DNA from: Escherichia coli
GTDB lineage: Bacteria; Pseudomonadota; Gammaproteobacteria; Enterobacterales; Enterobacteriaceae
Assembly: GCF_016026235.1 (NCBI RefSeq)
Contig: NZ_CP065613.1
Length of the DNA stretch: 64,000 nt
Reading direction: 5' to 3' (one strand)
The notes below the pieces were generated by a model. The model saw only the letters and a program-made list of their open reading frames with translations, searched no databases and was not told the DNA's origin. Shown here one piece after another: positions 15,875-17,190 of this stretch. Each line of letters opens with the position of its first letter. The stretch's first letter is position 1. The position numbers and the translations under genes are program-made.

Positions 15875-16624
15875 ATGAATACTGTAACCATCAACAACAA
15901 ACAGTTTCCGGTAATCGAATATCGCGGTCAGCGCGTGGTGACGCTGGCGATGATTGATGAAGTGCACCAACGCCCGGACGGAACAGCGGGACGCAATTTC
16001 CGCGAAAACAAGTCTCGTCTTATTGAAGGGGAAGACTACTTCGAATTAGGTTCCGACGAAATTCGTCGACACCTCCCTGACGGTACTTTCTCAAAATTTG
16101 CAGCAGCAGGAATTGTACTGGTCGAATCCGGTTATTTGATGTTGGTGAAATCCTTCACCGACGATCTGGCCTGGCAGGTTCAGCGCGAACTGGTTAACAG
16201 CTATTTCCGAACTCACGCGCCGCTGACGGAAATGGAGATGATCGCTGCAATGGCCGCCGATGCCGTTCGCCAGCAAAAGCGCCTGAGTCATGTTGAAAAG
16301 AAGATCGAAACGGTCACCAAAGCTGTGGAGAACATCAAACGCGGCACAATGCGCGCCGGATATGTCGGTTACCGCCAGGTGGTAGCCAAAAGTGGAATGA
16401 GTGACGCCAAGTGTCGGAATCTGGTGAACGCATATCAAATTCCTACAGACACCCACGAATTCATGACTCCGGACGGTCTGTTGTCTCGCAGGGCTATCGT
16501 CGAGCTTGAGCCATTTATGGCGGCGTTCCACCAAATGATGTCAGAGGCTGAACCACGCGGCACACGCTGGTATCACCCGAAGATGGGGCTTTTCCAGGTG
16601 ATCGGATGGGAGGATAAAGCATGA
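15875..16624 (+). CDS. ORF6N/ORF6C-type antirepressor-like protein
   Basis: ATG at 15875 with SD GGAGA; C-terminal ~130 aa paralogous to the Rha-family gene at 9931-10644. Confidence 0.75.
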   Translation: MNTVTINNKQFPVIEYRGQRVVTLAMIDEVHQRPDGTAGRNFRENKSRLIEGEDYFELGSDEIRRHLPDGTFSKFAAAGIVLVESGYLMLVKSFTDDLAWQVQRELVNSYFRTHAPLTEMEMIAAMAADAVRQQKRLSHVEKKIETVTKAVENIKRGTMRAGYVGYRQVVAKSGMSDAKCRNLVNAYQIPTDTHEFMTPDGLLSRRAIVELEPFMAAFHQMMSEAEPRGTRWYHPKMGLFQVIGWEDKA

Positions 16625-17190
16625 TCATCCAGTCAAAACTTATTCGCGCCGCTCTGGTGTGCGCTGCTAAAAACGACGTTCGTTATTACCTGAACGGTCT
16701 TCACATCACGCCGAAACATATTGAGGCAACCAATGGTTCCGTGGCACTGCGCATGGCTCACGGCATCCGGACGAAGAAAAACATCATTGTCCAGTTCGAA
16801 GGGGGCGTCCCGGCCAAAGCCGAAACGACAGAGCTGATTTTTAGTAAAGAGCCGATCGCTGTTCATCGCGACCAGTTTCAGCGACGACTGTCCATTACCG
16901 GCATTAAACTGGTGGACGGTTGTTTTCCGGATTTGGATCGCATCATTCCGAAAAAGTTTGACCGCTGTACTCACCCGGTGCTCCAGGCGGGTTACCTGAG
17001 TTATCCAGAGAAGATGTTTGGTCGTGAGCGTAAATTTATTCCCGTCCAGTTACGTCCCTCCGGTGACGGGCAAGCGGTCAGAATTCAGTTTGATTCCATC
17101 ATCAACTCAATGTATGGCAATCCTGAATTTGTTGTGATGCCTTGTCGTGATCATGGCGATTTCAACGTGGCTCAGGAGCATCCGGAATGA
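16621..17190 (+). CDS. truncated DNA polymerase III beta sliding-clamp (DnaN) homolog, domain II plus shortened domain III
   Basis: 189 aa; DVRYYLNG, KLVDGCFPDLDRIIPK and C-terminal FVVMPCRD align with E. coli DnaN DVRYYLNG, KLVDGRFPDYRRVLPK and YVVMPMRL. Confidence 0.7.
   Translation: MIIQSKLIRAALVCAAKNDVRYYLNGLHITPKHIEATNGSVALRMAHGIRTKKNIIVQFEGGVPAKAETTELIFSKEPIAVHRDQFQRRLSITGIKLVDGCFPDLDRIIPKKFDRCTHPVLQAGYLSYPEKMFGRERKFIPVQLRPSGDGQAVRIQFDSIINSMYGNPEFVVMPCRDHGDFNVAQEHPE

What the first reader, a model, noticed from the sequence alone, without database searches (positions are those of the whole stretch)
16621..17190. Prophage-encoded truncated beta sliding-clamp (DnaN) homolog
The 189-aa product of the early-left operon aligns with the C-terminal half of E. 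coli DnaN. Conserved blocks are DVRYYLNG (the domain II signature), KLVDGCFPDLDRIIPK (versus host KLVDGRFPDYRRVLPK at the domain II/III boundary) and the C-terminal FVVMPCRD (versus YVVMPMRL, which forms part of the host clamp's partner-binding cleft). Domain I is absent and domain III is shortened, so it cannot form a normal ring alone. It could heterodimerise with or mimic host beta, sequester clamp-binding proteins, or act like the host's UV-induced short beta* form. I do not know of a characterised lambdoid phage protein of this kind.
Basis: partly seen in the sequence, partly recalled or inferred. Interest (0 to 1): 0.8.

Follow-up and report, generated by a model that had tools for sequence, protein, structure and literature searches.

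The report
Phage mini beta-clamp keeping only the pocket
This prophage gene encodes a real, conserved, cut-down copy of the bacterial DNA sliding clamp that has lost the parts needed to form a ring but kept the groove where polymerases and repair proteins dock, so it probably acts as a clamp mimic; databases already label the family, but I found no functional study of it.

Summary

It belongs to a large family of 170-215-aa proteins in temperate and virulent phages of Proteobacteria, under purifying selection (dN/dS 0.05-0.25). What the family shares with DnaN is the clamp's peptide-binding pocket: the five most conserved family columns are all pocket residues. The most likely mechanism, which is inferred, is a soluble non-ring clamp mimic that binds clamp-binding motifs and so sequesters or re-routes host replication or repair proteins early in infection.

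The clamp likeness is already annotated (PGAP 'beta clamp domain-containing protein'; PHROG 3007, mislabelled RusA-like). I found no paper characterising the family. Partner, oligomeric state and phenotype remain untested.

The parts
16621..17190 (+). Mini beta-clamp gene (189 aa): DnaN domain II (residues ~1-116) plus one half-domain of domain III (residues ~117-177) and a short variable tail
16608..16614 (+). Shine-Dalgarno sequence GGGAGGA, 6 nt before the ATG; the ATG at 16621 overlaps the upstream stop codon (ATGA)
   Evidence: Read directly from the sequence.
16666..16698 (+). Residues 16-26, AKNDVRYYLNG, equivalent to DnaN 147-157. Contains pocket residues R152 and L155.
   Evidence: Identical octamer DVRYYLNG. 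R is kept in 99% and L in 96% of 141 family representatives.
16726..16746 (+). Residues 36-42, ATNGSVA, equivalent to DnaN 171-177 (ATDGHRL), the subsite I / bridge strand. S40 replaces the otherwise conserved H175.
   Evidence: T 93%, G 100% and H 91% across the family. Residue 40 is S/C/F in the E. coli clade.
16798..16824 (+). Residues 60-68, EGGVPAKAE: a family-specific loop (consensus G-K-x-P-x-K) in place of helix alpha2 of DnaN domain II
   Evidence: No helix between strands 55-59 and 69-73 in the model. P64 is conserved in 90% of the family and aligns with E202 of DnaN.
16906..16953 (+). Residues 96-111, KLVDGCFPDLDRIIPK, equivalent to DnaN 235-250, the domain II/III connector with pocket residues P242, R246 and V247
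   Evidence: 11/16 identical. P 99%, R/K 90%, V/I/L 91% across the family.
16975..16995 (+). Residues 119-125, PVLQAGY, equivalent to DnaN 317-323 (IGFNVSY). Contains subsite II residues N320 and Y323.
   Evidence: N 70% (plus Q 11%) and Y 89% across the family. The family consensus is IGFNAxYL.
17128..17151 (+). Residues 170-177, FVVMPCRD, equivalent to the DnaN C-terminal strand 359-366 (V360, M362, P363, M364, R365 of the pocket)
   Evidence: M 97%, P 91%, R 84% across the family.
15875..16624 (+). Upstream, translationally coupled antirepressor-like gene (ORF6N N-terminal domain; 249 aa from the start used in RefSeq)
   Evidence: Pfam ORF6N at 4.7e-15. PHROG 1726 'anti-repressor' at 4.8e-67. 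RefSeq annotation of identical DNA.
16436..16621 (+). Last 62 codons of the upstream gene (...RWYHPKMGLFQVIGWEDKA): a small C-terminal domain kept next to the mini-clamp while the N-terminal domain is swapped among prophages
   Evidence: The HPxxGxF tail is present in 49 of 61 unique gene pairs. It also occurs on pRha- and Bro-N-type proteins. AF2 folds it as its own domain with no confident docking.
12282..12310 (+). Candidate early-left (pL-like) promoter, TTGACA-17-TAATAT, just downstream of the CI-like repressor gene (11523..12218) and a terminator-like hairpin (12230-12246)
   Evidence: Consensus scan only, 10/12 matches. Gene order CI -> ... -> clamp -> xis -> int, all on one strand.
14816..15831 (+). 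Operon neighbours: a 62-aa membrane protein and an SPFH/band-7 lipoprotein
   Evidence: PHROG 1130 and PHROG 200. RefSeq 'SPFH domain-containing protein'.
17187..17694 (+). Downstream small operon genes (40 aa, DUF4222 of 80 aa, 44 aa) between the clamp gene and the excisionase
   Evidence: ORFs. PHROG 285 and 3871. RefSeq annotation.

Best explanation
The ORF encodes a non-ring derivative of the bacterial beta sliding clamp. It consists of DnaN domain II plus one half of domain III, and it has lost domain I, the other half of domain III and one channel-lining helix.

It belongs to a large family of 170-215-aa proteins found in temperate and virulent phages of Proteobacteria and kept under purifying selection. 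In this lambdoid prophage the gene sits in the early-left operon, so it should be made when the CI-like repressor is inactivated.

The part of DnaN that the family preserves is the hydrophobic pocket between domains II and III, where clamp-binding motifs (QLxLF-type peptides of Pol III alpha, delta, Hda, Pol II/IV/V, MutS/MutL) dock.

I therefore propose that the protein works as a soluble clamp mimic. It binds clamp-binding motifs off DNA and competes with host beta. That would either sequester clamp partners or re-route them to phage DNA-metabolism proteins.

Shown here: homology, architecture, fold, pocket conservation, selection and operon position. Inferred: peptide binding, the identity of the ligand, and the effect on host or phage replication.
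For: Homology and fold:
- Family profile against E. coli/Enterobacter beta clamp, E 1.7e-19.
- The profile aligns end-to-end with DnaN lacking one half-domain: 81.7 bits for 133-254+315-366, against 61 bits for 133-310.

Pocket conservation, using the pocket residues listed in review PMC11139829 and 141 family representatives clustered at 50% identity or less:
- R152 99%, L155 96%, T172 93%, G174 100%, H175 91%, P242 99%, Y323 89%, M362 97%, P363 91%, R365 84%.
- The five most conserved columns are all pocket residues.
- The E. coli residue is kept at mean frequency 0.69 at pocket positions against 0.20 elsewhere.
- Column entropy is 1.27 against 2.80 (Mann-Whitney p 9e-7).

Ring-forming parts absent:
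- Domain I is missing, including interface residues I78, F106 and R103.
- There is no helix between strands 55-59 and 69-73.

A functional gene:
- dN/dS 0.05-0.25 over 64 relatives.
- Strong SD sequence and ATGA coupling.
- The top 150 cluster representatives are nearly all 170-215 aa.
- 217 phage records carry a relative.

Context:
- Early-left operon between the CI-like repressor and xis/int.
- In virulent phages the gene lies among DNA-metabolism genes: SSB - ParB-like - mini-clamp - helicase in Serratia phage Eta, and primase/helicase - dUTPase - Dam - mini-clamp in Skarpretter. Neither genome has an annotated DNA polymerase.

Precedent: a monomeric beta variant binds delta about 50 times more tightly than the dimer does (PMC11139829).
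Against: - There are no binding or phenotype data for any member of the family.
- Pocket conservation could partly reflect a structural role at the domain II/III junction. Those same motifs also anchor the alignment to DnaN.
- Several pocket positions differ from DnaN: R176 becomes V/I/T, L177 becomes L/A/M, and M364 becomes M/C/A.
- The window's own copy has S in place of the otherwise conserved H175.
- No ligand was identified. The adjacent gene's conserved tail did not dock in an AF2 fusion.
- Gene context is not uniform. In Dhillonvirus 'rolling' the gene is an islet among structural genes, and that phage has its own DNA polymerase with no QLxLF-type motif.
- The oligomeric state was not modelled.
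- The protein is basic (pI 9.2, against 5.25 for DnaN), which would also fit direct DNA binding.
Confidence: 0.5

Rival explanations
1. It is a genuine processivity or tethering factor for phage DNA replication. Either it oligomerises (a two-fold dimer through the orphan half-domain, or a D2 tetramer giving the usual 12 modules) or it binds DNA directly through a basic face, as herpesvirus UL42/UL44 do. In both cases it uses the retained pocket to hold host Pol III, or another motif-bearing enzyme, on phage DNA.
For: - In Serratia phage Eta the gene lies inside an SSB - ParB-like - mini-clamp - helicase operon. Eta and Skarpretter have no annotated polymerase.
- The query is basic (pI 9.2, net +6; family median pI 8.5), whereas DnaN has pI 5.25.
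- The orphan half-domain should have an exposed surface (inference).
Against: - Domain I and one half-domain are gone, and one channel-lining helix is replaced by a loop.
- No clamp-loader-like gene is nearby.
- The monomer model is confident throughout.
- The gene also occurs as an isolated islet among structural genes, and in phages that have their own polymerase.
- No oligomer could be modelled.
Confidence: 0.2
2. It is one half of a two-gene module with the upstream antirepressor-like protein. The mini-clamp binds that protein's conserved C-terminal domain (...RWxHPxxGxF...), regulating it or being targeted by it.
For: - ATGA start/stop overlap.
- The C-terminal ~60 aa are kept directly upstream in 49 of 61 unique gene pairs, while the N-terminal domains are swapped among ORF6N, pRha and Bro-N.
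- KMGLF resembles the Pol II motif QLGLF (motif recalled from my own knowledge; CBM consensus in PMC11139829).
Against: - In the AF2 clamp-linker-tail fusion, the tail folds as its own small beta/alpha domain (pLDDT 59-88), with the motif inside strands. Overall pTM drops to 0.63, so no confident docking is predicted.
- The pairing is absent in Limnobaculum and Providencia relatives, where other genes intervene, and in all lytic phage relatives examined.
- Linkage inside a mosaic module could explain the adjacency.
Confidence: 0.12
3. It is a decaying fragment of dnaN, a spurious ORF, or (as PHROG 3007 and many GenBank records state) a RusA-like Holliday junction resolvase.
For: - The PHROG 3007 description and copied GenBank product names.
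- Salmonella Fels-1 carries only a partial copy.
Against: - dN/dS 0.05-0.25, and length is preserved over thousands of relatives.
- About 25% identity to host beta, and present in only 59 of 5426 E. coli genomes.
- Strong translation signals.
- Pfam finds no RusA domain, and the fold is a clamp.
Confidence: 0.02

Closest known systems
Bacterial beta sliding clamp DnaN (E. coli, PDB 1MMI/2POL; TIGR00663; Pfam PF00712/PF02767/PF02768)
   Same: Homologous sequence and fold for domain II and one half of domain III. The peptide-binding pocket residues and the 147-157 loop are conserved.
   Different: 189 aa instead of 366. It has no domain I, no second half of domain III, no helix alpha2 in domain II and no canonical dimer interface. 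It is basic rather than acidic. It scores 21 bits against a family cut-off of 137.65.
Beta*, the short UV-induced product of an internal start in E. coli dnaN (Skaliter/Paz-Elizur/Livneh 1996; recalled from my own knowledge, not checked here)
   Same: It begins at the same domain I/II boundary: residue 1 here aligns to about DnaN 132-136. It also lacks domain I.
   Different: Beta* is host-encoded, identical in sequence to beta, keeps complete domains II and III, and was reported to form a ring-like trimer. The phage protein is about 25% identical to beta and lacks a further half-domain and a helix.
Monomeric beta variant I272A/L273A (PDB 1JQL)
   Same: A non-ring clamp with an intact pocket. 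It binds the clamp-loader delta subunit about 50-fold more tightly than dimeric beta does (PMC11139829). This is the best precedent for what a free pocket module might do.
   Different: It is an engineered three-domain protein, not a natural phage gene.
Herpesvirus non-ring processivity factors (HSV UL42, CMV UL44, EBV BMRF1, KSHV PF-8)
   Different: They have two full domains, bind their own viral polymerase and DNA directly, and show no sequence similarity to the mini-clamp. The mini-clamp is a clear DnaN derivative.
Phage proteins that target the host clamp (for example Gp168 in PDB 7EVP; MuC of phage Mu, PMC12867686)
   Same: Phage interference with, or exploitation of, the beta-clamp interaction hub.
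   Different: Those proteins bind the clamp or carry a clamp-binding motif. This one imitates the clamp's binding site, which is the opposite side of the interaction.
Full-length phage-encoded DnaN homologs (PHROG 947, 368-position profile)
   Same: Phage-borne DnaN relatives. The query matches profile positions 138-251.
   Different: That match is weak (E 2.2e-4). Those are complete three-domain clamps.

Membership tests
Bacterial beta sliding clamp (DnaN, TIGR00663) | Whole-protein score above the curated cut-off of the equivalog model | tested here: not met
   21.2 bits against a cut-off of 137.65.
Bacterial beta sliding clamp (DnaN, TIGR00663) | Three clamp domains (I, II, III), about 366 aa | tested here: not met
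   189 aa. The profile aligns to DnaN 133-254 plus 315-366 (or 133-288 plus 341-366). Domain I and one half-domain are absent.
Bacterial beta sliding clamp (DnaN, TIGR00663) | Clamp fold (repeated beta-alpha-beta-beta-beta modules) | tested here: met
Bacterial beta sliding clamp (DnaN, TIGR00663) | Head-to-tail dimer interface (I78, F106, R103 with I272, L273, E298, E304) | tested here: not met
   The domain I half of the interface is absent altogether. The domain III half is absent under one of the two equally scoring deletion models.
Bacterial beta sliding clamp (DnaN, TIGR00663) | Conserved clamp-binding-motif pocket (subsites I and II) | tested here: met
   13 of 18 pocket positions are conserved across 141 family representatives. 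In the query 12 of 18 are identical to E. coli and 2 more are conservative substitutions (V247I, N320Q). Position 175 is S instead of H.
Bacterial beta sliding clamp (DnaN, TIGR00663) | Closed ring loaded on DNA by the clamp loader; confers processivity | not testable with these tools
   Needs biochemistry or multimer modelling; structure-prediction jobs were exhausted.
Phage short beta-clamp-like proteins (PHROG 3007; PGAP 'beta clamp domain-containing protein') | Full-length match to the family profile | tested here: met
   E 5.9e-65, residues 1-179 on profile positions 3-188 of 190. Identical to WP_000586688.1.
Phage short beta-clamp-like proteins (PHROG 3007; PGAP 'beta clamp domain-containing protein') | Length about 170-215 aa with the motifs DVRYYLNG, TxGH, DGxFPDxxRxxP, (IGFN)xxY and VVMPxR | tested here: met
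   Alignments A1 and the hmmalign of 141 representatives.
Beta* (short form of host DnaN) | Translated from an internal start of the host dnaN gene; complete domains II and III | tested here: not met
   A separate prophage gene about 25% identical to beta, with half of domain III missing.
RusA Holliday junction resolvase (label of PHROG 3007) | RusA domain (Pfam PF05866) or fold | tested here: not met
   The only Pfam hit is PF02767. The fold is a clamp.
Non-ring viral processivity factors (UL42/UL44 type) | Clamp fold used off-ring, with a basic DNA-binding face and a cognate viral polymerase | tested here: inconclusive
Known anti-phage defence systems (PADLOC) | Match to a defence-system protein model | tested here: not met
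   No hit for the clamp gene or for three upstream neighbours.

The most novel reading that the evidence does not exclude
Pocket-only beta-clamp mimics are an uncharacterised and widespread class of phage host-takeover proteins. They would titrate or re-route proteins that carry clamp-binding motifs (Pol III alpha, delta, Hda, MutL, translesion polymerases, possibly RecBCD). The repeated substitutions at pocket-rim sites (equivalents of beta H175, V344 and R240) would then reflect partner switching or an arms race. A bolder structural variant, also not excluded, is that the 1.5-domain subunits assemble through two-fold contacts into a dimeric arc or a D2 tetrameric 12-module ring with binding pockets on both faces.
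Probability: 0.35. Interest if true: 0.8.

Novelty: new variant of a known kind. Interest (0 to 1): 0.6.

Why it matters
The beta clamp is the central hub of bacterial replication and repair and is a drug target. Phages are known to attack it with clamp-binding proteins and to exploit it through clamp-binding motifs.

A natural, widespread protein that keeps only the clamp's docking pocket would be a new way of manipulating that hub. It would also be a ready-made minimal pocket scaffold for studying or screening clamp-binding ligands.

The family is large: thousands of cluster representatives, and 217 deposited phage genomes including E. coli, Salmonella and Klebsiella phages used in therapy collections. 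It is currently annotated inconsistently, and in part wrongly as 'RusA-like resolvase'. The hypothesis can be tested directly with peptide-binding assays and knockouts.

Tried and rejected
1. Adjacent-gene partner. I tested whether the conserved C-terminal tail of the upstream antirepressor-like protein (KMGLF, similar to the Pol II motif QLGLF) docks into the mini-clamp. I used an AF2 fusion with a paired alignment of 40 rows. The tail folds as its own small domain and pTM falls to 0.63. This gives no support, although the tool reports neither contacts nor PAE.
2. Distant-relative loci. The search for related loci with a 33-sequence divergent alignment failed because no stretch was conserved enough. 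I sampled annotated phage records instead.
3. Universal conserved neighbour. There is none. Contexts range from lambdoid early-left operons to replication operons, islets among structural genes and the early region of an Autographiviridae phage.
4. 'Only in polymerase-less phages'. Rejected. Eta and Skarpretter lack an annotated polymerase, but Dhillonvirus 'rolling' has one, with no QLxLF-type motif.
5. Which half of domain III is missing. Sequence cannot decide (81.7 against 81.2 bits). The IGFNxxY and VVMPxR motifs favour retention of the second half.
6. Defence-system membership. No PADLOC hits.
7. Literature. Seven full-text searches found no study of the family. STM0896 of Fels-1 appears only as a map landmark in PMC3121763. 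A lead about serine-integrase directionality factors proved irrelevant.
8. QMHLSL motif in ParB-like neighbours of three related lytic phages. Too few independent cases, so I did not pursue it.
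Full report
**1. The observation**

Window 16621..17190 (+) is an ATG-initiated ORF of 189 codons. A GGGAGGA Shine-Dalgarno sequence lies at 16608-16614. The ATG overlaps the stop codon of the upstream gene as ATGA.

- DVRYYLNG at residues 19-26, identical to E. coli DnaN 150-157.
- KLVDGCFPDLDRIIPK at residues 96-111, 11/16 identical to DnaN 235-250.
- FVVMPCRD at residues 170-177, 5/8 identical to DnaN 359-366.

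It is 366 aa, its numbering matches the PDB alignments printed, and it scores 72.3 bits against the family profile, the same as chain 1mmi_A.

**2. Is it more than chance?**

The single sequence is only marginally similar to DnaN:
- phmmer against PDB, E 1.4e-3.
- TIGR00663, E 1.2e-4 and 21.2 bits against a cut-off of 137.65.
- Pfam PF02767, i-E 0.18.

Family-level and structural evidence settle the matter:
- A 28-sequence alignment of relatives (A1) used as a profile hits 45 beta-clamp chains. The best is E 1.7e-19, covering DnaN 136-293 with a second stretch at 314-365.
- AlphaFold2 on that alignment gives pLDDT 91 and pTM 0.87.
- All 50 listed Foldseek hits in PDB are beta clamps at probability 1.0.

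Because 164 of about 177 ordered residues superpose as one rigid body, the C-terminal module sits against domain II as it does in DnaN.

**3. Architecture**

The family profile aligns end-to-end with a DnaN from which one half-domain has been removed. The scores are 81.7 bits for residues 133-254+315-366 and 81.2 bits for 133-288+341-366, against 61 bits for 133-310. So the protein is domain II plus one beta-alpha-beta-beta-beta module of domain III.

Sequence alone cannot say which half was lost, because the two halves are homologous. The IGFNxxY and C-terminal VVMPxR motifs belong to the second half.

The model also has no helix between strands 55-59 and 69-73. Helix alpha2 of DnaN domain II is replaced by a family-specific loop of consensus G-K-x-P-x-K, whose proline is 90% conserved. 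Domain I is absent.

The dimer interface of beta uses I78, F106 and R103 of domain I, and I272, L273, E298 and E304 of domain III (PMC11139829). At least one side of that interface is entirely missing.

**4. A real and widespread family**

- HMMER against 1.84 billion cluster representatives finds 13,433 hits at E<=1e-3. That count includes full-length DnaN. The best 150 are nearly all 170-215 aa and match over the full length.
- tblastn finds relatives in 217 phage records, in Salmonella, Escherichia, Klebsiella, Vibrio, Proteus, Burkholderia, Aeromonas and other hosts.
- AFDB50 holds many short proteins of the same fold from Proteobacteria, all automatically named or uncharacterised.
- Against 64 relatives taken from IMG/VR prophage contigs, dN/dS is 0.05-0.25.
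- The gene occurs in only 59 of 5426 complete E. coli genomes and is about 25% identical to E. coli beta. It is not a recent fragment of host dnaN.

RefSeq already names this exact protein (WP_000586688.1) 'beta clamp domain-containing protein'. PHROG 3007 matches at E 5.9e-65 but is labelled 'RusA-like Holliday junction resolvase'. That label is not supported: Pfam finds no RusA domain and the fold is a clamp.

**5. What is conserved**

I mapped the clamp-binding-motif pocket of E. coli beta, as listed in a 2024 review, onto 141 family representatives. Subsite I is R152, L155, T172, G174, H175, R176, L177, P242, R246, V247, V360 and M362. Subsite II is H175, N320, Y323, V344, M362, P363, M364 and R365 (PMC11139829).

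| DnaN residue | Kept in family |
|---|---|
| R152 | 99% |
| L155 | 96% |
| T172 | 93% |
| G174 | 100% |
| H175 | 91% |
| P242 | 99% |
| R246 | R/K 90% |
| V247 | V/I/L 91% |
| N320 | 70% (plus Q 11%) |
| Y323 | 89% |
| M362 | 97% |
| P363 | 91% |
| R365 | 84% |

The five most conserved columns of the whole family are all pocket residues, and 10 of the top 16 are. The E. coli residue is kept at mean frequency 0.69 at pocket positions against 0.20 elsewhere. Column entropy is 1.27 against 2.80 (Mann-Whitney p 9e-7).

The caveat is that these motifs also anchor the alignment. The finding is best put as: what the family shares with DnaN is the pocket.

The retained segments form the junction between domain II and the retained half of domain III, which is where the pocket lies. 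This last point rests on my recollection of the clamp topology and is an inference.

**6. Context in the window**

The element is a lambdoid prophage. The gene order on one strand is:
1. CI-like LexA-family repressor, 11523..12218.
2. Terminator-like hairpin and a TTGACA-17-TAATAT promoter-like site, 12282-12310.
3. Several small genes.
4. A 62-aa membrane protein.
5. An SPFH lipoprotein.
6. An ORF6N antirepressor-like gene.
7. The mini-clamp.
8. Three small genes.
9. Excisionase.
10. Integrase.

For the related Salmonella prophage Fels-1, the left operon is known to be derepressed on induction (PMC3121763).

The prophage encodes a DnaB-like helicase and a loader but no DNA polymerase.

**7. 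Possible partner next door**

In 49 of 61 unique prophage gene pairs, the gene immediately upstream ends in a conserved ~60-aa C-terminal region (...RWxHPxxGxF...; here RWYHPKMGLFQVIGWEDKA). The start/stop overlap is ATGA. The N-terminal domain varies among ORF6N, pRha and Bro-N types.

KMGLF resembles the Pol II clamp-binding motif, so I modelled a clamp-linker-tail fusion with a paired alignment. The tail folds as its own small domain (pLDDT 59-88) with the motif inside beta strands, and overall pTM drops to 0.63. This gives no support for docking. I keep it as a minor rival.

**8. Context elsewhere**

The relatives I examined fall into several settings:
- In virulent siphoviruses the gene often follows a ParB-like gene: DS8, Pu29, pIS4-A and Eta.
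- In Serratia phage Eta the operon is SSB - ParB-like - mini-clamp - helicase, and the genome has no annotated DNA polymerase.
- In Skarpretter the operon is primase/helicase - band 7 - dUTPase - Dam - mini-clamp, again with no polymerase annotated.
- In Dhillonvirus 'rolling' the gene is a two-gene islet among structural genes. That phage has its own polymerase, with no QLxLF-type motif.
- In a Ralstonia Autographiviridae phage it lies in the early region.

There is no universal partner gene. Association with DNA-metabolism genes is common but not strict.

**9. Mechanism**

The best-supported reading is a soluble, non-ring clamp mimic made early in the lytic cycle. It would bind clamp-binding motifs through the retained pocket and thereby compete with host beta. 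It could sequester partners such as delta, Pol III alpha, Hda, MutL or translesion polymerases, or hand them to phage proteins.

A precedent is that monomeric beta binds delta about 50 times more tightly than the dimer does (PMC11139829).

Shown here: identity, architecture, pocket conservation, selection and operon position. Inferred: peptide binding, the ligand and the consequence. My confidence is about 0.95 that this is a functional DnaN-derived pocket-bearing protein, and about 0.5 that it works by binding clamp-binding motifs as a competitor or adaptor.

The main rival (0.2) is a true tethering or processivity factor, either oligomeric or directly DNA-binding. The replication-operon context and the basic pI (9.2 against 5.25 for DnaN) favour it. 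The missing interface and helix count against it.

**10. Unexplained detail**

Within the enterobacterial prophage clade (65 unique sequences) the pocket core is invariant, but three pocket-rim sites change repeatedly:
- Residue 40 (beta H175): H/S/F/R/C/Y, 6 changes. It is S/C/F even within an E. coli subclade at 96% identity or more. The window has S.
- Residue 150 (beta V344): 9 changes.
- Residue 101 (beta R240): 9 changes.

The mean is 2.05 changes per site. This could reflect specificity tuning or relaxed constraint, and I did not test it formally.

**11. Novelty and verdict**

Databases already recognise the clamp likeness, so the mere existence of the homolog is not new.

Three things were not found in any paper searched (the library is limited to open-access papers and bioRxiv): the architecture as a pocket-only 1.5-domain derivative, the strength of pocket conservation, and the breadth of the family.

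I rate it a new variant of a known kind, with interest 0.6.

Noticed in passing
window 17860-19109 (with 17713..17862 and 19110-~19218): A 1250-bp IS3-family element, IS911-like by my recollection, splits the excisionase-like ORF. Its terminal inverted repeats are TGAAGTGGTCAACAAAAACTGGCC and ...GGCCAAATTCAGTGTGCCACTTCA, and its transposase ORFs lie on the minus strand. The prophage is probably excision-defective.
   Followed up: partly
window 19253..21261: The integrase (428 aa) is followed by a MerR/MlrA-like ORF and ABC-transporter genes. This copy of the prophage therefore sits at a yehV/mlrA-type site, whereas the relatives found in RefSeq sit next to yecE/yecN/cmoA.
   Followed up: no
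window 14816..15831: A 62-aa membrane protein and an SPFH/band-7 lipoprotein lie just upstream in the same operon. A band-7 gene also sits in the mini-clamp operon of the virulent phage Skarpretter. This may be coincidence or a recurring association.
   Followed up: no
PHROG 3007; phage records H3, H6, H8-H12, H15: The family is labelled 'RusA-like Holliday junction resolvase' in PHROGs, and that label is copied into many GenBank phage genomes. The proteins have the beta-clamp fold and no RusA domain. This is probably a propagated misannotation.
   Followed up: yes
L004 (Salmonella phage Fels-1) 3696-4330: Fels-1 keeps only the equivalent of residues ~80-187 (70% identity). The match lies across two annotated ORFs, STM0896 and STM0896.2n, at the same position in its left operon. 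It looks like a remnant copy.
   Followed up: partly
window 16738-16740 (residue 40), 16921-16923 (residue 101), 17068-17070 (residue 150): Pocket-rim positions equivalent to beta H175, R240 and V344 are among the most frequently substituted sites in the enterobacterial prophage clade, while the pocket core is invariant. Residue 40 is S, C or F within sequences at least 96% identical.
   Followed up: partly
window 16436-16621 and loci L091, L092: A ~60-aa C-terminal domain (...RWxHPxxGxF...) is shared by antirepressor-like proteins with different N-terminal DNA-binding domains (ORF6N, pRha, Bro-N). PHROG 1726 does not cover its last ~20 residues.
   Followed up: partly
window 3564..3874 (- strand): A cluster of four tRNA genes (Gly-TCC, Thr-TGT, Arg-TCT and a CAT-anticodon tRNA) lies in the late region of the prophage.
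   Followed up: no
L002 683-1501, L086 2792-3601, L095 2501-3316: The ParB-like proteins encoded next to the mini-clamp in three related virulent phages carry an internal QMHLSL, which fits the hexameric clamp-binding pattern. There are too few independent cases to judge.
   Followed up: no
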